A DNA stretch of 64,000 nucleotides from Nitrospiraceae bacterium (GTDB lineage Bacteria; Nitrospirota; Thermodesulfovibrionia; UBA6902): NCBI GenBank assembly GCA_020356065.1, contig CP070632.1, forward strand, positions 141,262-205,261, written 5' to 3'. Numbering within the stretch: the first letter of the stretch is position 1; every line of letters starts with the position of its first letter. This document shows, piece by piece, positions 51,537-58,369 of this stretch. The notes below the pieces were generated by a model. The model ran no database searches. It was not told the origin of the DNA and worked only from the letters and a program-made list of their open reading frames with translations. Made by a program: the position numbers and the translations under genes.

Positions 51537-51566
51537 AAAAAGGCCCAGGTTAAAGAACCTGAACCC
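51537..51566 (-). terminator. Rho-independent terminator after rpsI
   Basis: Minus strand GGGTTCAGGTT-cttt-AACCTGGGCC-TTTTT. Confidence 0.6.
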
Positions 51567-51620: not shown

Positions 51621-52013
51621 TTATCTCTTCGAGAACTGGAAACGTGCCCTGGCACCCTTAAGACCGTATTTTTTCCTTTCAACCGATCTCGGGTCCCTTG
51701 TTAACAGCCCCTCTTTTTTTAATTTTCCACGGAAATCGGAATTCGCCTGAACCAGCGCACGTGATATGCCATGTCTGATTGCCGAAGCCTGTCCGCTATA
51801 TCCTCCACCCTTGACCCTGACGCTAATATCATATTTCCCGCTTACCGCAACTACATGTAAAGGCTGCTGAACTATCATTTTCATGGTTTCATGAGGAAAG
51901 TACTGGTTCATGGGTTTCTTGTTGATGACAATATTTCCTGAGCCGGCTTTCATAAACACCTGCGCAATAGATGACTTTCTTCTGCCTGTTGCATTATATT
52001 CTATTTCTGCCAT
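51621..52013 (-). CDS. rpsI: 30S ribosomal protein S9
   Basis: [34 protein letters not shown]. Confidence 0.98.
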
Positions 52014-52029
52014 TTTTTAAAAAAACTCC

Positions 52030-52467
52030 TTATTTGATATTTAAAGACAATTCTTCAGGGTTCTGCGAACTGTGCGGATGGTCGGCTCCGCGATATACTT
52101 TTAATTTTTTGAACTGCTGTCTTCCAAGCGTGTTTTTTGGAAGCATGCCACGGACCGCGGAATAGATTATTCTTTCAGGAGATTCTTTCATAATATCCCT
52201 GGCCGTTTTTGATTTTAAACCGCCGGGATACCCTGAATGACGGTAATATGTCTTTTTCTCAAGTTTATTTCCCGTAAACCTGATTTTTTCCACATTTATT
52301 ATCACAACATAATCACCGGTATCTACATGTGGGGTAAAAATAGGTTTGTTTTTGCCCCTTATTATTGACGCAACTCGTGCAGCCAGCCTCCCTACTGCCA
52401 GCCCGTCAGCATCTATCACATGCCACTTCCTGATAACATCCGTATTTTTTGCTGATTTTGTTTTCAT
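52030..52467 (-). CDS. rplM: 50S ribosomal protein L13
   Basis: [35 protein letters not shown]. Confidence 0.98.
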
Positions 52468-52508
52468 ATTTCCTCGCTATGCTCGTATTAAAAAGAATAG
52501 AACATAAC

Positions 52509-52538
52509 ATGATAATGAAAAAATGCTTAATTTGTCAA
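52509..52538 (-). promoter_or_regulatory. sigma70-type promoter of rplM-rpsI
   Basis: TTGACA-18-TATCAT on the minus strand. Confidence 0.55.
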
Positions 52539-52583
52539 TACTAATGGAAATAATTACAATATCGGGGTACAAAAATCGTTTAA

Positions 52584-52769
52584 TTAAACCCTGTCACAGG
52601 AACGGTGAGAAAGTTTTTCCCAGAAATTCATATCAAGCTCGTCTACATATTCATCAATTGAATATTTATTGCTGCATTCCATGCAGCGCAGTGTAACGCC
52701 CCTTCAACCGATTTTCAATTCCAGTTTACCGCTACATTTCCTGCATTTCATGGATGATCTTGTACTCAT
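52584..52769 (-). CDS. Small dual-CxxC selenoprotein (61 aa, UGA read as Sec at codon 22)
   Basis: RBS GGGAGG; MSTRSSMKCRKCSGKLELKIG-U-RGVTLRCMECSNKYSIDEYVDELDMNFWEKLSHRSCDRV*; TGA at 52704-52706; SECIS-like hairpin downstream. Confidence 0.82.
52671..52687 (-). promoter_or_regulatory. Bacterial SECIS-like hairpin
   Basis: mRNA GCUGCAU-GGA-AUGCAGC; stem starts 16 nt and loop 23 nt after the UGA; G-containing loop. Confidence 0.72.
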
Positions 52770-52908
52770 GAATAAAAACCTCCCATTTCCAGTTTCATAT
52801 AGTATAGACCAATTGCATTTAAAAGTTAATTTTTCTGAAGTGGCATTGGCTTCTGAGATATTCCCATTTGAAAATTCATGCCTTCGACCGCTGGCGGGTG
52901 ATGTACTT

Positions 52909-52924
52909 TGGCAATTAAATTGCA
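52909..52924 (+). promoter_or_regulatory. sigma54-type site or palindromic operator upstream of the kinase operon
   Basis: TGGCAAttaaaTTGCA has -24/-12 spacing and contains the palindrome GCAATT-A-AATTGC. Confidence 0.5.
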
Positions 52925-53117
52925 TATAAATCGTTAGAATTATTTCTATACATTTCAATTTAATTTATATATATTTATGGTTGACAAATTATATATAATT
53001 AGGCATTTATTTTATTATGAATCTCTCTGAAATTATATTCCGGAAAGAGATTCATCTCATTTTTTATTGTGCATTAATAACATCAAGGCCATTAATCAGT
53101 GAAAAGGATAGAATGAT

Positions 53118-55247
53118 ATGAGTATTAGTCAGCACCATTCAGTCGCTTTGCTGATCTCATCTGCTTCATTTTTACTGTTGGGCCTGTTTGTTCTTTTTAA
53201 AGCTCCCCGCAAGCATATACATAAGGTTTTTTCATTTTACGCACTGTGTGTTGTCCTGTGGAGCTCTGGGCAGGCATACCTCAGCAGCACCACCAGTTCT
53301 GCCGGGTATATGATCGCCATTGTTCTTCTCACGTCAGGAACCATTTTCATTGCTCCGGCCTTTGTCCATTTCATATGTTCATTACTCAGGCTTCGTAGAT
53401 TAAAGAGCAGACTGCTGACCGCGCTTTACGTAATCAGCTGTTTCCTTCTGCTTGCGGTCACACCTGCATTGATTAAACCAGGCAGTAAGATAATGAGCTT
53501 CAGTATGAGCAGCTATCTTTTTTTCACAACCATTTTTTTCTGGACAGGCTGTGTTGTTTACGGATTTATTCTCCTATTAAAGTCATATGTTCGCTCAACA
53601 GGCTTGAGAAGAAAACAGTTGACGTTACTGGTAACAGGATCGCTTCTCGGATACTCTGGCGGGACGACAAACCTGCTTAACACTCTGGGTCCTGATAGTT
53701 TCCCGATTAGTCCTTTTGCCACATACGCTGTTCCGCTATATGGGGGCATCATTGCGTATGCCATATTCCGCTATCGTTTTTTAGGGATTAATATTCCTCT
53801 GAAAAGGGGTATGGCATATTCCTTTTCAGCAGGCCTTCTAATGGGACTTTTTGTCATACTGGTCTTATCAATAACTAATACACTGTCGGTGTATACGAAG
53901 GTTGACTCGTTTAAAATCAGTCTTTTGTCTGCCGGTATTATTGCATTTCTTTTTAATCCTCTCAGGAACCGGATTCAGGTATTAATTGATAAAATATTCT
54001 ATAAGAAGACGTATAACTATTACTCCATTCTTAAGAAAATCAATGCCAGACTTTCTTCAATATTTGACCTGAAGGAGATTTGTGACATCATCGGGAATGA
54101 GGTCTGTGCTGTCATGGGCTTAAGGAACATGTATGTACTGTCATACGTTCCGAAAGCAGGTTACAGGGTGATAAGCAGATCATCTATAAAACCCTCCATG
54201 AGAAAAGAATGCAAGGAAGGCGGGGATATTCATGCCAATGGCCTGAATCCTGATCAGTCACTGGACATAGCACGATACTGGCTTAATTCCAGAGATATTA
54301 TTTTAAACGGTGAACAGTCCGGTCTGGCCGGATATATTGCACCTGAACAACTGGAGAGCATTCACCTTGCATTCAAGCTATTTAACGGGGAGGTAATGGT
54401 CCCTGTAATGATAGACAATAAACCTTCCTTTCTTCTCATGATCGGCGAGAAAATGTCCTGTGAATTTTTCACTAGAGAGGATATTTCTCTGCTGGGTACA
54501 ATATCGGAGCAGATGGCTGTTGCAGTGAAACATTCAGAACTATACAAGGACAAGGTGCATTCAGAAAGGCTGGCATCTATTGGCATGATGTCAGCCACAT
54601 TTGCGCATGAAATCCGAAATCCTCTCACTTCATTAAAAACGTTTGCCCAGCTTATGCCAGAAAAATATAATGACAGTGAATTCAGAGATACCTTTTCAAA
54701 AATCGTTGAGGGAGAAATTGAAAAAATAGATCGCCTTATTAAAGACCTGCTTGACTTTTCCATTCATAAACAGGCATCGCGTATTGACCATTTCAATATT
54801 GTGTCTCTGGTAGATGAGACCATTGACTATGTTAAAGAGAAGGCCCCTGATAATATGAAAAGCATAACTGTACAGAAAAAATATAATGAGAGTGAAATAC
54901 TCATGACAGGCGATGCATCCAAACTTAACCAGGCGTTTGTAAATATAATAACAAACGGATATCAGGCAATGCACGGCGAAGGGCAGCTGATTGTTGATAT
55001 CAATCCAAAAGGGAAAAATGTGGAAGTTGTCATATCCGATACGGGAGAAGGTATAGAACCTGAGAGTATGGACAGAATATTCGATCCTTTCGTGACCTCC
55101 AAAGAGATGGGCATCGGTCTTGGTCTGGCCATCAGTAAACGAATTATTGAAGACCATAACGGAGAGTTGCATGTAATAAGTTCTGTATCGGAAGGTACGA
55201 GCTTCACGATCACACTCCCTGTACAGAATGGTTCACAAATATTATAA
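53118..55247 (+). CDS. 7TM (HisKA_7TM-type) sensor histidine kinase with GAF-like domain
   Basis: Multi-TM N-terminus ending YAIFRYRFLGI; AHEIRNPL, NIITNG, DTGEG, FDPF, GIGLGL. Confidence 0.9.
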   Translation: MSISQHHSVALLISSASFLLLGLFVLFKAPRKHIHKVFSFYALCVVLWSSGQAYLSSTTSSAGYMIAIVLLTSGTIFIAPAFVHFICSLLRLRRLKSRLLTALYVISCFLLLAVTPALIKPGSKIMSFSMSSYLFFTTIFFWTGCVVYGFILLLKSYVRSTGLRRKQLTLLVTGSLLGYSGGTTNLLNTLGPDSFPISPFATYAVPLYGGIIAYAIFRYRFLGINIPLKRGMAYSFSAGLLMGLFVILVLSITNTLSVYTKVDSFKISLLSAGIIAFLFNPLRNRIQVLIDKIFYKKTYNYYSILKKINARLSSIFDLKEICDIIGNEVCAVMGLRNMYVLSYVPKAGYRVISRSSIKPSMRKECKEGGDIHANGLNPDQSLDIARYWLNSRDIILNGEQSGLAGYIAPEQLESIHLAFKLFNGEVMVPVMIDNKPSFLLMIGEKMSCEFFTREDISLLGTISEQMAVAVKHSELYKDKVHSERLASIGMMSATFAHEIRNPLTSLKTFAQLMPEKYNDSEFRDTFSKIVEGEIEKIDRLIKDLLDFSIHKQASRIDHFNIVSLVDETIDYVKEKAPDNMKSITVQKKYNESEILMTGDASKLNQAFVNIITNGYQAMHGEGQLIVDINPKGKNVEVVISDTGEGIEPESMDRIFDPFVTSKEMGIGLGLAISKRIIEDHNGELHVISSVSEGTSFTITLPVQNGSQIL

Positions 55248-55320
55248 TATAGATATTAAACCTCAGATTGCTGCCATATATCAGTTGGTACGGTATCATA
55301 TTGTTTGTGAAAGATAAATC

Positions 55321-57357
55321 ATGGAGTTACTGGCATTATTAAGCAAAAACGAGAAAATGATTCTCGAGGTCAAAGCTGCCCTCAAAAAGTATACAGTCTA
55401 TCCTCTAAAAACACTGGATGAACTGGAAGATCTTAACAGCAATATACCTCTTAACCTGGTTCTTATGGACACTGACTGCCTTGGCTTGACTGAGCTGAGG
55501 GAATTCCTCGACCGGTTTGATGATGGCATGGCCGTCATTATTACCCGTGATAATATCAGATGTGATGTTCTCAATCTGCCAAATAGTGTAATCAGCAGTA
55601 TTTCAGCGGGGGCCACAGGGGATTCATTTCTTATGAGTGTTGAGAAAGCACTTGAAAAACAGAAACTCAGGCGCAGATTAAAATTATTGAAACAGTCAGG
55701 CAGATCCATCCCCCCCTCATATGATCAGGGGTTCGGTGTACAAAAACCGGACAGGTCGGCCGACGTTTCTGAACCACTGACGACCGGCAGAGTAATTCAC
55801 GAAAAAATAATAGTTAACTTTGCGAGGATGTTGACTGCCAGTTTTGACATGAGAAAGCTCCTTGACACCTTTATGGATTCAGTCATGGAAATAGCCAGGG
55901 TAAGCAGGATGTCCGTCCTGCTCAGGAACAAACAGGGATTTTATGTAAAAACCCACTACGGCCTGGACCCCTATATAGCAGACAACATGAGAATCTCAAG
56001 GGACAGTGCACTTGTTTCCTGGCTCGCAAAGACGGGAAGGATTATTCATAAACCGGCAAACTTTGTCGATTCTTCCGATGTTGATGTCAGCAGTGACATG
56101 GAAGCCCTGCAATGCACCGTTTCATTTCCCATGATATACAAGGGTAAGTTAATCGGTATATTTAACATAGACAGCAAGGTGACTGAGGAACCCTTTCATA
56201 AAGAAGAACTGGAAATGATATATGTGCTGTGCAACTATCTGGCTGCTGCTGTAAAGGATATCGATGTGTATCATCAGATGTGGTATCAGAAAGAGTTTAC
56301 AAAAAACATCTTATTGAGCATGAACAGCGGAATGATAGCAATTGACAGAGATGAAGCAATCACTTTTTTTAATAAACAGGCTTCAGAAATTCTTGCCATC
56401 GATGCTGAGAACATGATAGGGAAAAACACGAGGGCTCTGCCCTACCCTTTGGGAGATATTCTTTTGAGAACCATGGTGGCCGGAACATCATACAGCAGGT
56501 ACGAAGTGGAGATGGCCACCGGGGAACTAACTCTTGGCATCAACAGTTACCGGTTACAGGATGAACACAATATCCCTACAGGTGCCGGCATTATTTTTTC
56601 AGACATATCTGATTCAAAAAAACTGGCTGAACAGAACAACAGGACAGCGAAACTTGAGGCGGTTAATAATCTGGTGGCAAAAATTGCTCATGAGGTCCGA
56701 AATCCCCTTACATCCATTCAGACATATATACAACTTCTGAGCGACAAGCTTACTGATGATGATCTTCATAACTTCTATCTCTCAACAGTCAGAGACTCAA
56801 TTAATAAACTCACGGGTCTCATTGACAAGCTGGTGAGCTTCTCAAGTTCTGAAAACTACAATATGAAGCATTATGATGTGAATGTCTTTATTAATGAATC
56901 CTTTGAATTTCTCTTAAGAAACCTTCCCGTATCTCACAGGTTGTCAAAAATATTATCCGATACTCATCTGACCATCAATATTGATAAACGTCAGATGCTA
57001 AAAGCCATATATTATATTATTTTAAACATCATTGATATGACCCCCGAGGGAACCCTGATTCGGATCGGCACATACGGTACTAAACCGGAAGAACCTTTCC
57101 TGGAAATATCCATTGAATTCACTCAGACAGGCACAGCCGTCAAGGATAAGAAAGCATTGTTAAAACCGTTACTTGATATAGAACATCTCGGGACAGAACT
57201 GAACATCCCGATCAGTCATAAAATTATTGAAGCACATGAGGGCAGTCTTGATTTACGGTCATTTGATAAATTGCATTCCTTTATCATTAAATTACCTCTT
57301 GTAGAGCGGAGAGACGCTCAGGTTTCTTCTGAAGAAGGATGGGTACGTGGACAATAA
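55321..57357 (+). CDS. Receiver-like/GAF/PAS/HisKA protein with degenerate ATP-binding domain (pseudokinase)
   Basis: H-box AHEVRNPL intact; G1 replaced by EFTQTG, F box by LLKPL, G2 by GTELNI. Confidence 0.8.
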   Translation: MELLALLSKNEKMILEVKAALKKYTVYPLKTLDELEDLNSNIPLNLVLMDTDCLGLTELREFLDRFDDGMAVIITRDNIRCDVLNLPNSVISSISAGATGDSFLMSVEKALEKQKLRRRLKLLKQSGRSIPPSYDQGFGVQKPDRSADVSEPLTTGRVIHEKIIVNFARMLTASFDMRKLLDTFMDSVMEIARVSRMSVLLRNKQGFYVKTHYGLDPYIADNMRISRDSALVSWLAKTGRIIHKPANFVDSSDVDVSSDMEALQCTVSFPMIYKGKLIGIFNIDSKVTEEPFHKEELEMIYVLCNYLAAAVKDIDVYHQMWYQKEFTKNILLSMNSGMIAIDRDEAITFFNKQASEILAIDAENMIGKNTRALPYPLGDILLRTMVAGTSYSRYEVEMATGELTLGINSYRLQDEHNIPTGAGIIFSDISDSKKLAEQNNRTAKLEAVNNLVAKIAHEVRNPLTSIQTYIQLLSDKLTDDDLHNFYLSTVRDSINKLTGLIDKLVSFSSSENYNMKHYDVNVFINESFEFLLRNLPVSHRLSKILSDTHLTINIDKRQMLKAIYYIILNIIDMTPEGTLIRIGTYGTKPEEPFLEISIEFTQTGTAVKDKKALLKPLLDIEHLGTELNIPISHKIIEAHEGSLDLRSFDKLHSFIIKLPLVERRDAQVSSEEGWVRGQ

Positions 57358-58369
57358 CGATAAAATTCTTGTCATCGATGATGAACTTGCTCCACGAGAA
57401 TCAATACGTATGGTATTAAAGGACCACTATCATGTGTTAACCGCTTCAGGTGCGGGAGAAGGACTGGATATAATGAGCAGGGACCCCGTTGATCTGGTAG
57501 TGATGGATATTAAAATGCCGAAAATGGACGGAATTACTGCGTTGCAGCAGATCAAAAGCACACATCCTGATACGGAAGTCATACTTCTCACCGCTTATGC
57601 AAGTCTTGAAACTGCCAGAGATGCGATCCGCTTCGGTGCTTTTGATTACCTGATAAAACCTTTTGACAAAGATGATGTCATAATGATCGTTGAGAAGGGA
57701 CTTGAGAAGAGACGCACCAATGCCGGCCTCAGACTGGAACGAGATACACTGCTGGACAAGACATCCAGGCTGGAAAGTCAGATCAATGAGGCCCGCTCAA
57801 ACATTATGAATTATTATGATGGAACGGTTAAAGCCCTGATTTACACTATTGACGCCAAAGATCATTACACATTTAATCACTCCAACAGGGTTGCTGAGCT
57901 GGCATCAGCCATGGCTAAGGTAATTGGTGTGCCACAGACGACGATCAAGGGACTAGAGCACGCTGCCTCAATTCATGATATTGGGAAAATAGGAATTGAT
58001 GAGAGCATTCTCAGGAAAAAAGGACGCCTCTCGCCGGAGGAATACGAAGAAGTGAAAAACCATCCTGCAATCGGAGCAAGGATCGTAAAGTCCGTGCCCT
58101 TTCTTGAAGATGCGGTACCGGTAATTCTTTATCATCATGAACGGTTTGATGGTAACGGTTATCCTGAAGGATTCAGGAGCACGCAGATCCCTTTAACCGC
58201 CAGAATCGTTCTCGTTGCTGACGCGATTGATGCGATGATGAGTGACAGACCATACAGAAAAGCATTACCGATTGAACAGGTTATGAGCGAACTAAAAAAT
58301 AACTCAGGCACCCAGTTTGATCCGGTTATTACGAGCCTTGTGTTAAACGGTGACGTTCCCCTTCAGTAA
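57347..58369 (+). CDS. Response regulator with HD-GYP phosphodiesterase domain
   Basis: IDDE, MDIKMP, KPF; HSNRV, HDIGKIG, HHERFDGNGYP, RPYR; GTG start overlaps the upstream stop. Confidence 0.93.
   Translation: MDNNDKILVIDDELAPRESIRMVLKDHYHVLTASGAGEGLDIMSRDPVDLVVMDIKMPKMDGITALQQIKSTHPDTEVILLTAYASLETARDAIRFGAFDYLIKPFDKDDVIMIVEKGLEKRRTNAGLRLERDTLLDKTSRLESQINEARSNIMNYYDGTVKALIYTIDAKDHYTFNHSNRVAELASAMAKVIGVPQTTIKGLEHAASIHDIGKIGIDESILRKKGRLSPEEYEEVKNHPAIGARIVKSVPFLEDAVPVILYHHERFDGNGYPEGFRSTQIPLTARIVLVADAIDAMMSDRPYRKALPIEQVMSELKNNSGTQFDPVITSLVLNGDVPLQ

What the first reader, a model, noticed from the sequence alone, without database searches (positions are those of the whole stretch)
52584..52769. 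Hidden CxxC-Sec-CxxC selenoprotein between rplM and a signalling operon
Seen: the ORF track stops at TGA 52704-52706. The frame starts at an ATG with a GGGAGG RBS and continues past the TGA to give a coherent 61-aa protein: CRKC, then U, then CMEC, an acidic helix and a terminal Cys. A perfect 7-bp hairpin (GCUGCAU-GGA-AUGCAGC) starts 16 nt after the UGA, and a possible lower pairing UUGAA/UUCAA spans the UGA. Established: bacterial SECIS elements lie just 3' of the UGA with a G in a small apical loop. From recall, small dual-CxxC (seleno)proteins have been described, with unknown function. Inference: a zinc-ribbon redox switch with Sec between the knuckles, transcribed divergently from the 7TM-kinase/HD-GYP operon and possibly read into rplM-rpsI.
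Basis: partly seen in the sequence, partly recalled or inferred. Interest (0 to 1): 0.82.

Follow-up and report, generated by a model that had tools for sequence, protein, structure and literature searches.

The report
Small dual-CxxC selenoprotein gene, known family
The stop codon in this short gene is really read as selenocysteine, giving a 61-residue zinc-ribbon-like protein that belongs to an already catalogued family of small selenoproteins whose function is still unknown.

Summary
On the minus strand, 52769-52584 holds an ATG with a GGGAGG site, an in-frame TGA at codon 22 (52706-52704), and 39 more codons in the same frame. The read-through product scores 62 bits against NCBIfam NF041197, "dual CXXC motif small (seleno)protein" (cut-off 40). 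This family was first reported in 2007 as OS_HP3.

The genome is a Nitrospirota MAG; its relatives' records are titled Thermodesulfovibrionia. It has selA, selB, a Sec-containing selD and the 5' half of selC, which is cut by a contig end.

In 61 related genomes all 49 matches carry exactly one in-frame TGA. Across the phylum, 136 of 301 genomes have a match, and only 3 rows over the cut-off lack the TGA.

The 7-bp hairpin 16 nt after the UGA is conserved. It shows compensatory changes and strong synonymous-codon constraint: Cys codons in the stem are TGC in 119 of 122 cases, against 107 of 177 elsewhere. It is a credible SECIS embedded in the second CxxC. The proposed lower pairing is not conserved.

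The placement upstream of rplM-rpsI holds within the family only, and the kinase operon link does not hold beyond a few loci. Function remains unknown; a Zn-ribbon with Sec at the hairpin tip is the best inference.

Verdict: real, but an ordinary member of a known kind.

The parts
52584..52769 (-). Coding sequence of the 61-residue selenoprotein (ATG 52769-52767, TAA 52586-52584), read with TGA=Sec at codon 22
   Evidence: Searches give the sequence and translation. NF041197 at 62 bits, cut-off 40; the same codon periodicity on both sides of the TGA.
52704..52706 (-). In-frame UGA, codon 22, read as selenocysteine
   Evidence: The TGA sits at the same column in all 30 aligned loci, in 49 of 49 matches among relatives, and in all 61 Sec-form loci examined. 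It is unchanged in contigs of runs X5 and X6.
52671..52687 (-). SECIS-like hairpin: 7-bp stem GCUGCAU/AUGCAGC with GGA loop (52680-52678), starting 16 nt after the UGA; it overlaps codons R28-C29-M30-E31-C32-S33
   Evidence: fold; 92% of cells paired over 30 loci, with compensatory changes at two pairs; synonymous sites are frozen.
52779..52784 (-). GGGAGG ribosome-binding site, 9 nt before the ATG
   Evidence: Read directly.
52589..52601 (-). Weak terminator-like hairpin overlapping the end of the gene (tentative)
   Evidence: a consensus scan only: 5 pairs, tail TTTAATTAAA.
52801..52829 (-). Weak sigma-70-like promoter match upstream of the gene (tentative)
   Evidence: TTAACT-17-TATACT, 9 of 12 positions.

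Best explanation
This is a genuine selenoprotein gene and a member of the known family NF041197 (dual CXXC motif small (seleno)protein, first reported as OS_HP3).

How it is decoded: during translation the UGA at codon 22 is read as selenocysteine. The mRNA folds into a small hairpin 16 nt downstream, with a 6-7 bp stem and a G-starting apical loop. This hairpin is the kind of element that bacterial SelB with Sec-tRNA(Sec) recognises. It is built from the very codons that encode the second CxxC motif (R-C-M-E-C-S).

What the product looks like: it is a 61-residue protein predicted to be a zinc ribbon. C9/C12 and C29/C32 form the two metal knuckles. Sec22 sits at the turn of the beta-hairpin between them, and an acidic helical tail ends in Cys58.

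Shown: the gene, the conserved UGA, translation past it, the conserved hairpin under RNA-level selection, the Sec machinery, and family membership.

Inferred (about 0.3-0.4): the four Cys hold a structural metal, and the exposed Sec is the reactive redox or metal-binding residue. In this clade it may be resolved by the C-terminal Cys as a selenenylsulfide.
For: Family: 62 bits against NF041197, cut-off 40, covering profile positions 1-53 of 53.

Conserved UGA:
- 48 of 61 related genomes have a match, and all 49 match rows carry exactly 1 TGA.
- 136 of 301 genomes of the phylum have a match, 127 over the cut-off; only 3 rows over the cut-off have no stop.
- Those three, and the database homologues P0003 and P0005, carry Cys at that column.

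Translation past the UGA:
- C29, C32, D46 and R60 are invariant downstream of it in 30 loci.
- Mean pairwise identity at codon positions 1/2/3 is 0.70/0.76/0.35 upstream and 0.67/0.78/0.49 downstream, in the same frame.

Hairpin:
- 92% of cells are paired over 30 loci. Pair 23-39 changes GC to AU in 2 loci and pair 29-33 changes UA to CG in 5.
- Over 61 loci, the six core pairs are all standard in 54. Pair 29-33 is UA 15, CG 22, UG 3, GC 1, AU 1.
- Cys codons in the stem are TGC in 119 of 122 cases, against 107 of 177 for the other Cys codons.
- The Arg codon before the stem is CGC in 48 of 48 cases.

Sec machinery:
- selB scores 353 bits and selA 630 bits.
- selD scores 329 bits with one in-frame TGA, reading GGUAAK.
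- The first 53 nt of selC, including the UCA anticodon, lie at a contig end.
- The organism's own selD has a similar 6-bp hairpin with a GGC loop 11 nt after its UGA.

Fold: AlphaFold2 gives pLDDT 71 with strands 15-21 and 24-29, putting residue 22 at the turn. The nearest solved folds are Zn-ribbons, but only weakly.
Against: - No experiment shows selenium in the protein, and no RNA run holding this stretch was listed.
- The fold of the hairpin in this one sequence is not better than shuffles (z = -0.94).
- Rfam has no matching family.
- The stem coincides with a conserved protein motif, so part of its conservation comes from the protein.
- selC is only half present in the assembly.

Against the functional inference:
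- Foldseek found no match with E <= 0.001 (best 0.3), and the PDB sequence search gave nothing convincing.
- The C-terminal Cys is missing from the last six residues in 6 of 61 Sec-form members.
- It is also missing from the Thermodesulfobacteriota-type Cys homologues P0012, P0020 and P0037. A Sec22-Cys58 bond therefore cannot be the family's general mechanism.
- Gene neighbours differ from family to family, so context gives no clear partner.
Confidence: 0.9

Rival explanations
1. The TGA is a true stop. The locus would then hold a 21-residue peptide, or a decayed gene, and the downstream frame would be open only by chance or be a separate 32-residue ORF starting at Met30.
For: Table 11 ends the ORF at 52704. 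Public gene calls list many 31-38-residue proteins that begin just after the TGA. No expression data are available.
Against: - The TGA is kept at one column in 49 of 49 matches, in all but 3 rows over the cut-off across the phylum, and in 61 of 61 Sec-form loci. A pseudogene would not keep it.
- Both halves show the same codon periodicity in one frame.
- The rare TGA-less forms have Cys there.
- The Sec machinery is present.
- The short database proteins are what gene callers produce from an unrecognised Sec codon.
Confidence: 0.03
2. The hairpin is only a by-product of the palindromic codons for Cys-Met-Glu-Cys and is not a SECIS. The UGA would be passed by some other route, or the true SECIS would lie elsewhere.
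For: The stem is made of TGC-ATG-GAA-TGC, which is self-complementary by its nature. The single-sequence fold has z = -0.94. Rfam gives no hit.
Against: - Sites free at the protein level are fixed. The third base of the codon before Cys29 is C in 30 of 30 loci, whatever the residue (R, Y, S, L or C).
- Arg there is CGC in 48 of 48 cases.
- Ser after Cys32 is AGC or AGT and never TCN.
- Stem Cys codons are TGC in 119 of 122 cases, against 107 of 177 elsewhere.
- Where Met-Glu becomes Thr-Ala/Ser/Val, the U-A pair becomes C-G.
- Two of three Cys forms have weakened stems.
- RNAalifold finds no other conserved structure in the 66 nt after the UGA.
Confidence: 0.05
3. The short ORF acts mainly as a selenium-dependent leader for rplM-rpsI. 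Whether the UGA is passed would set expression of the ribosomal genes downstream, and the peptide itself would matter little.
For: In 21 of 30 loci, rplM-rpsI-argC follows 74-242 nt downstream on the same strand. In other families gltX or asnS follows directly.
Against: - The protein sequence is conserved along its whole length, with invariant Cys, Asp and Arg.
- In the other class of the phylum the gene lies downstream of aspS, not upstream of anything comparable.
- In a survey of 20 further loci the neighbours are mostly unrelated.
- A strong promoter-like site (11 of 12 positions) and a terminator-like hairpin lie between the gene and rplM in the window.
Confidence: 0.04
4. The four Cys bind iron as in rubredoxin, or another redox metal, and the protein is an electron carrier rather than a structural Zn-ribbon carrying a reactive Sec.
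For: Two CxxC knuckles with a following Gly or Ser also fit rubredoxin-type sites (recalled). One relative has a rubredoxin-reductase-like flavoprotein abutting the gene convergently (L106). Multihaem cytochromes are neighbours in L092, L100 and L111. A CxxCxxCC Cys-cluster protein follows directly in 5 loci.
Against: The structural matches, though weak, are to Zn-ribbons and not to rubredoxins. The listed Pfam, NCBIfam and PDB sequence matches include no rubredoxin family. Sequence alone cannot decide which metal is bound.
Confidence: 0.15

Closest known systems
NCBIfam NF041197, CxxC_Se_CxxC, 'dual CXXC motif small (seleno)protein' = 'hypothetical protein OS_HP3' of Zhang and Gladyshev 2007 (PMC1976440; listed in the 2026 review PMC13188914)
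   Same: It scores over the curated cut-off across the whole profile. It is about 55-61 residues long, with two CxxC motifs flanking one Sec and a SECIS-like hairpin after the UGA. Function is unknown in the literature seen.
   Different: The review's table gives the Sec motif as RxU, whereas this clade has [IVFM]-G-U. This clade also ends in R-x-C-[DN]-R-x with a further Cys (55 of 61). The Thermodesulfobacteriota-type Cys homologues end in ERY..IIYD without that Cys. I could not see the OS_HP3 sequences themselves, because figures are not held and supplements are closed.
Bacterial SECIS elements such as that of E. coli fdhF (recalled), and the SECIS of this genome's own selD
   Same: A stem-loop shortly 3' of the UGA, inside the coding sequence, with G at the start of a small apical loop. 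The selD of the same genome has a 6-bp stem with a GGC loop 11 nt after its UGA.
   Different: The element is very small (6-7 bp with a 3-5 nt loop) and has no conserved lower stem. SelB binding was not tested.
Zinc-ribbon domains: TFIIS/Rpb9/RPC10 type, topoisomerase I C-terminal ribbons, NudC, eIF2-beta
   Same: Two CxxC knuckles separated by a beta-hairpin. The model superposes on these over 31-35 residues at 1.4-2.3 A rmsd.
   Different: The matches are weak (best E 0.3), with no sequence kinship. None of these, as far as I recall, carries a Sec or reactive Cys at the hairpin tip.
MsrB1 / selenoprotein R (recalled, not tested)
   Same: A structural Zn held by two CxxC pairs, plus a separate catalytic Sec that is resolved by a distant Cys.
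   Different: MsrB is about twice as long and has a different fold and Sec position. No sequence or family match was seen here. This is an analogy of design only.

Membership tests
NF041197 dual CXXC motif small (seleno)protein | Score over the curated cut-off of the family model | tested here: met
   62 bits against a cut-off of 40, protein residues 9-61 on profile positions 1-53 of 53. The six-frame genome search gives 53.1 bits with 1 TGA.
NF041197 dual CXXC motif small (seleno)protein | Small protein with two CxxC motifs flanking one Sec or Cys | tested here: met
   C9xxC12 - U22 - C29xxC32 in 61 residues. The same columns are invariant in 30 loci.
NF041197 dual CXXC motif small (seleno)protein | Sec/Cys pair at the same column in homologues | tested here: met
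   Cys is at that column in P0003 and P0005 and in L090-L092. TGA is there in 61 of 61 other loci.
Bacterial selenoprotein gene (Sec decoding) | selA, selB, selC and selD in the genome | tested here: met
   selB, selA and selD with its own in-frame TGA are present. For selC only the 5' 53 nt with the UCA anticodon are assembled, cut by a contig end. ARAGORN and Rfam missed it.
Bacterial selenoprotein gene (Sec decoding) | Stem-loop shortly 3' of the UGA with G in a small apical loop (criteria recalled from bSECISearch descriptions) | tested here: met
   The hairpin starts 16 nt after the UGA and has a GGA loop. It is conserved, with covariation and frozen synonymous sites. In 61 loci, 58 loops have G at the first or second position.
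Bacterial selenoprotein gene (Sec decoding) | Selenium shown in the protein | not testable with these tools
   This needs 75Se labelling or mass spectrometry.
Zinc ribbon | Two knuckles on beta-hairpins binding one Zn | tested here: inconclusive
   The AlphaFold2 model has pLDDT 71 and the expected strands. Foldseek gives only weak Zn-ribbon matches, with none at E <= 0.001. Pfam Zn_ribbon_4 matches at E 0.16. The metal was not determined.
Rubredoxin | Match to a rubredoxin family or fold | tested here: not met
   The listed matches include no rubredoxin family or fold.

The most novel reading that the evidence does not exclude
This small selenoprotein is near-universal in Thermodesulfovibrionia and may work on the translation apparatus as a Sec-based redox or metal sensor bound to the ribosome, a tRNA synthetase or a tRNA. 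That would explain why different families place it next to different translation genes: rplM-rpsI, tilS-gltX, aspS, asnS, hflX and a YacP-type NYN nuclease. A variant of this reading is that it forms a redox relay with the CxxCxxCC Cys-cluster protein that follows it directly in four families.
Probability: 0.12. Interest if true: 0.6.

Novelty: new member of a known kind. Interest (0 to 1): 0.25.

Why it matters
The finding shows that the first-stage reading can recover a selenoprotein gene that standard gene callers split or truncate. Public protein sets hold many 31-38-residue stumps of this family.

The gene itself adds no new kind of system. The family has been known since 2007 and has a curated model that annotation pipelines use.

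- The family is one of the most constant selenoproteins of Thermodesulfovibrionia. It almost never switches to Cys.
- Its SECIS is written into the codons of the second CxxC motif, with clear RNA-level selection.
- In 23 of 61 members the gene ends on a UGA stop only 39 codons after the UGA read as Sec. This makes the family a compact natural case for studying how the two UGAs are told apart.

The function is still open. Any assay that finds it would fill a gap nearly twenty years old.

Tried and rejected
Rfam scan of 52000-53200 at E <= 10: only chance-level rows and no SECIS family.

Pfam on the read-through protein: nothing over a cut-off.

PDB sequence search with the 30-row profile: best E 0.0063, to a C2H2 finger over 28 residues, judged spurious. 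bL31, eS27, HypA and a Trm112-like chain all score at E > 0.1.

Foldseek against PDB: no match at E <= 0.001.

ESM Atlas with the natural Cys homologue P0005: only its own family and generic Zn-ribbon clusters, with no functional lead.

Search for RNA evidence: no RNA holder was listed.

Run X7 gave no contig on the stretch, and X1 covered only parts of it.

ARAGORN on the whole genome (32 tRNAs, no tRNA-Sec), the Rfam tRNA-Sec search of the genome (no row over the cut-off), and ARAGORN and Rfam on the selA/selB region all missed selC. It was found only by blastn with the tRNA-Sec of relatives.

A literature search for the Thermus protein ZifS returned only papers on zeolitic frameworks and was dropped.

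A general link to translation genes was considered and then tested on 20 more loci from other families. One has tilS and gltX as neighbours, one has a YacP gene two genes away, and three have the CxxCxxCC protein. The rest have unrelated or unnamed neighbours. The link is kept only as the novel case.

A link to the 7TM kinase operon was rejected. The kinase is upstream only in the window's genus and a few loci.

A Sec22-Cys58 bond as the family's general mechanism was rejected, because 6 of 61 Sec-form members lack the C-terminal Cys.

Supplements and figures of the papers could not be seen. The original OS_HP3 sequences and SECIS drawing (PMC1976440, Figs 4 and 5) were therefore not compared.

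Full report
**What is in the window**

On the minus strand an ATG at 52769-52767 is preceded by GGGAGG at 52784-52779, 9 nt upstream. The frame meets TGA at 52706-52704 and then runs on for 39 more codons to TAA at 52586-52584. By table 11 the ORF list ends at 52704. With TGA read as Sec the product has 61 residues: MSTRSSMKCRKCSGKLELKIGURGVTLRCMECSNKYSIDEYVDELDMNFWEKLSHRSCDRV.

- rplM (52467-52030), rpsI and argC lie downstream on the same strand.
- A 7TM histidine kinase, a GAF-PAS kinase and a response regulator with an HD domain are transcribed divergently upstream.

**Family**

The read-through protein scores 62 bits against NCBIfam NF041197.2, CxxC_Se_CxxC, "dual CXXC motif small (seleno)protein". 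The curated cut-off is 40, and the match covers the whole 53-position profile. Pfam has nothing over a cut-off.

In the literature held here:
[quoted passage not shown] I saw passages of its table.
- Its reference is Zhang and Gladyshev 2007, PMC1976440, of which I read section 12 and passages. OS_HP3 is there one of six new selenoprotein families from the Olavius symbiont metagenome, with 2 selenoproteins, 0 Cys homologues and a predicted SECIS.
- PMC12013277 mentions OS_HP3 in Desulfosarcina widdelii as the one known selenoprotein its method missed (one passage).
- None of these passages gives a function.

**Does the organism use Sec?**

The window lies in a 3.17-Mb MAG made of 124 pieces joined by 100-N spacers, 95% complete. 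Its Sec genes are as follows:
- selB scores 353 bits and selA 630 bits, and the two lie close together.
- selD scores 329 bits with one in-frame TGA. Read through, it gives GGUAAK at the known Sec/Cys site.
- tRNA-Sec was missed by the Rfam search of the genome, by ARAGORN (32 tRNAs in all), and by both tools around selA/selB.
- Seven of 13 relatives have a tRNA-Sec at about 70 bits. Blastn with those sequences finds the first 53 nt of selC, including the UCA anticodon loop, at G000:C1:2032116-2032168, immediately before an N spacer.

All four genes are therefore accounted for, with selC cut by the assembly.

**Is the TGA real and conserved?**

- Contigs of runs X5 and X6, from two other studies, cover the gene with the TGA unchanged. 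The X6 strain differs by changes that I read as Y41F and S6A.
- Among 61 related genomes (the window's included), 48 have a family match, 47 of them over the cut-off. All 49 match rows carry exactly one TGA.
- Across 301 genomes of the phylum, 136 have a match, 127 over the cut-off. Only three rows over the cut-off (G297, G336, G311) have no stop.
- Presence is near-universal in the window's class and in one family of another class (46 of 57). No match was found in several other families sampled: 0 of 57, 0 of 27 and 0 of 20.
- Named records of relatives are Thermodesulfovibrionia or Nitrospirota MAGs. All 21 of those loci also have the TGA, but many come from the same genomes as the G handles and are not independent.
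- The three TGA-less loci and the database homologues P0003 and P0005 carry Cys at the Sec column.
- Database entries P0002, P0004 and P0006 have W there. I read this as TGA translated under another table.

**Is the frame translated past the TGA?**

In 30 aligned loci the invariant columns are C9, C12, U22, C29, C32, D46 and R60. G14, L16, L18, Y36, Y41, E44, W50, R56 and C58 are at 90% or more. Mean pairwise nucleotide identity at codon positions 1, 2 and 3 is:
- 0.70/0.76/0.35 upstream of the TGA;
- 0.67/0.78/0.49 downstream of it;
- 0.62/0.78/0.42 downstream without the hairpin codons.

The same frame is under protein-level selection on both sides of the TGA.

**The hairpin**

In the window GCUGCAU-GGA-AUGCAGC lies at 52687-52671, 16 nt after the UGA. 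On its own it is unremarkable: z = -0.94, and 35 of 200 shuffles fold as well. The comparison with relatives is what counts.

- Over 30 loci the stem is paired in 92% of cells. Pair 23-39 changes GC to AU in 2 loci and pair 29-33 changes UA to CG in 5. RNAalifold predicts only this helix.
- Over 61 Sec-form loci from 61 genomes, the six core pairs are all standard in 54. Pair 29-33 is UA 15, CG 22, UG 3, GC 1, AU 1.
- The stem is made of codons R28-C29-M30-E31-C32-S33, so protein and RNA constraints overlap. I therefore looked at synonymous sites.
- Cys codons inside the stem are TGC in 119 of 122 cases. The three Cys codons outside it are TGC in 107 of 177.
- The Arg codon before Cys29 is CGC in 48 of 48 cases. 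The third base of that codon is C in 30 of 30 loci, whatever the residue.
- Ser after Cys32 is AGC or AGT and never TCN.
- Where Met-Glu in the CxxC becomes Thr-Ala/Ser/Val, the U-A pair becomes C-G.
- Of the three Cys forms, one keeps the hairpin and two have it weakened by wobbles and a mismatch. With n = 3 this is only suggestive.
- The organism's own selD has a 6-bp stem with a GGC loop 11 nt after its UGA.

Kinship among the genomes means none of these counts is a clean statistic, but together they show RNA-level selection on a SECIS-like element. I do not count it as part of the element.

**The protein**

AlphaFold2 with the 30-row alignment gives pLDDT 71 and pTM 0.50. It predicts strands 15-21, 24-29 and 35-37 and helices 38-41 and 47-55. 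The two CxxC motifs therefore sit at the ends of a beta-hairpin whose turn is G21-U22-R23, and the tail holding Cys58 is of low confidence. Foldseek finds no match at E <= 0.001. The best rows (E 0.3-1) are Zn-ribbons: topoisomerase I, RPC10/Rpb9, eIF2-beta, NudC and ZifS, over 31-35 residues at 1.4-2.3 A.

My reading is a Zn-ribbon with the Sec exposed at the far tip of the hairpin. This is an inference, at about 0.7 for the fold and 0.3-0.4 for the chemistry. A C-terminal Cys is present in 55 of 61 Sec-form members. It is absent from the Thermodesulfobacteriota-type Cys homologues, which end in ERY..IIYD. A Sec-Cys58 selenenylsulfide can therefore be at most a clade feature.

**Context**

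In 21 of 30 loci, rplM-rpsI-argC follows 74-242 nt downstream on the same strand. One locus ends at the gene, and eight have other neighbours. Those eight are:
- gltX directly downstream in two;
- asnS directly downstream in one;
- hflX convergent in one;
- an unnamed protein followed by a YacP-type NYN domain in two;
- an unnamed protein followed by a DeoC aldolase in two.

In the other class the gene lies just downstream of aspS, in 4 of 4 upstream ORFs sent to Pfam.

This looked like a link to translation, so I sampled 20 more loci from other families. All 20 have the gene with its TGA. Their neighbours are mostly unrelated: MscS, UbiD, a methyltransferase, multihaem cytochromes, DAC, an IF-2B-family protein, FeoB, a glycosyltransferase, LptD, a kinase, a sulphur-transport protein, MFS, a pyridine-nucleotide disulphide oxidoreductase and alanine dehydrogenase. 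One locus has tilS and gltX.

The one recurrent operon-like partner outside the window's family is a protein of about 180-200 residues with a CEGCEDNCC motif. It matches PF03692 (CxxCxxCC) at or near the cut-off: 25.7, 22.6, 21.2 and 16.1 bits against a cut-off of 23. It occurs in 5 loci of 4 families. The window's genome has no homologue at 1e-4.

The 7TM kinase is upstream only in the window's genus and a few other loci. In the window, a promoter-like site (TTGACA-18-TATCAT, 11 of 12 positions) lies between the gene and rplM, and a weak terminator-like hairpin lies at the gene's end. These are consensus matches only, so co-transcription with rplM stays open.

**Verdict**

The gene is an ordinary member of a family that has been known since 2007 and is curated in NCBIfam. 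The novelty is low and I score interest at 0.25.

Beyond the literature seen, the session adds:
- the clade-wide constancy of the Sec form;
- the codon-level evidence that the SECIS is written into the second CxxC;
- the clade-specific [IVFM]-G-U and C-terminal Cys signature, against the RxU motif of the review's table;
- the fact that 23 of 61 members end on a UGA stop 39 codons after the Sec UGA.

The function remains unknown.

**Limits**

- There is no expression or selenium data.
- The structural model is of middling confidence.
- The related genomes are kin, so the counts overstate independence.
- The translation-gene pattern was noticed after the fact.
- Figures and supplements of the papers could not be seen.

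Noticed in passing
G000:C1:2032116-2032168 (outside the window): The first 53 nt of tRNA-Sec (selC), with the UCA anticodon, end at a contig boundary. ARAGORN and Rfam both miss it for that reason.
   Followed up: yes
L009:1399-2424 (-), the window genome's selD: SelD is itself a selenoprotein (U at residue 15, GGUAAK). It has a 6-bp hairpin with a GGC loop 11 nt after its UGA.
   Followed up: partly
61 Sec-form loci (L020-L049, L079-L089, L093-L112): In 23 of 61 members the gene ends on a TGA stop 39 codons after the TGA read as Sec, so the two UGAs in one short mRNA are read differently.
   Followed up: partly
L027:1738-2271, L032:909-1502, L098:2144-2764, L109:1389-1970; also L096: In four other families the selenoprotein gene is followed at once, on the same strand, by a protein of about 180-200 residues with a CEGCEDNCC motif. 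It matches PF03692 (CxxCxxCC) at or near the cut-off. In three loci a YacP-type NYN gene comes next. No homologue was found in the window's genome.
   Followed up: partly
L080, L082, L083, L086 (a family of another class of the phylum): There the gene lies just downstream of aspS on the same strand (4 of 4 upstream ORFs sent to Pfam). Its CxxC reads C-T-[ASV]-C, with the stem's U-A pair replaced by C-G.
   Followed up: partly
window 52509-52538 (-): A sigma-70-like promoter match, TTGACA-18-TATCAT (11 of 12 positions), lies between the selenoprotein gene and rplM. This suggests rplM-rpsI has its own promoter (a consensus scan only).
   Followed up: no
window 51541-51566 (-): A terminator-like hairpin (11 pairs, T-rich tail) lies after rpsI and before argC.
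   Followed up: no
window 52648 and 52754: A strain in run X6 differs at these places. By my reading of the codons these are Y41F and S6A in the selenoprotein, and the TGA is kept.
   Followed up: partly
Public protein sets (P0007-P0043): Most database relatives are 31-38-residue stumps that start just after the TGA, and three full-length entries show W at the Sec column. Gene callers truncate or misread this family.
   Followed up: partly
window 53118-58369 (+): The divergent operon encodes a HisKA_7TM histidine kinase, a GAF-PAS histidine kinase and a response regulator with an HD_5/HD domain.
   Followed up: no
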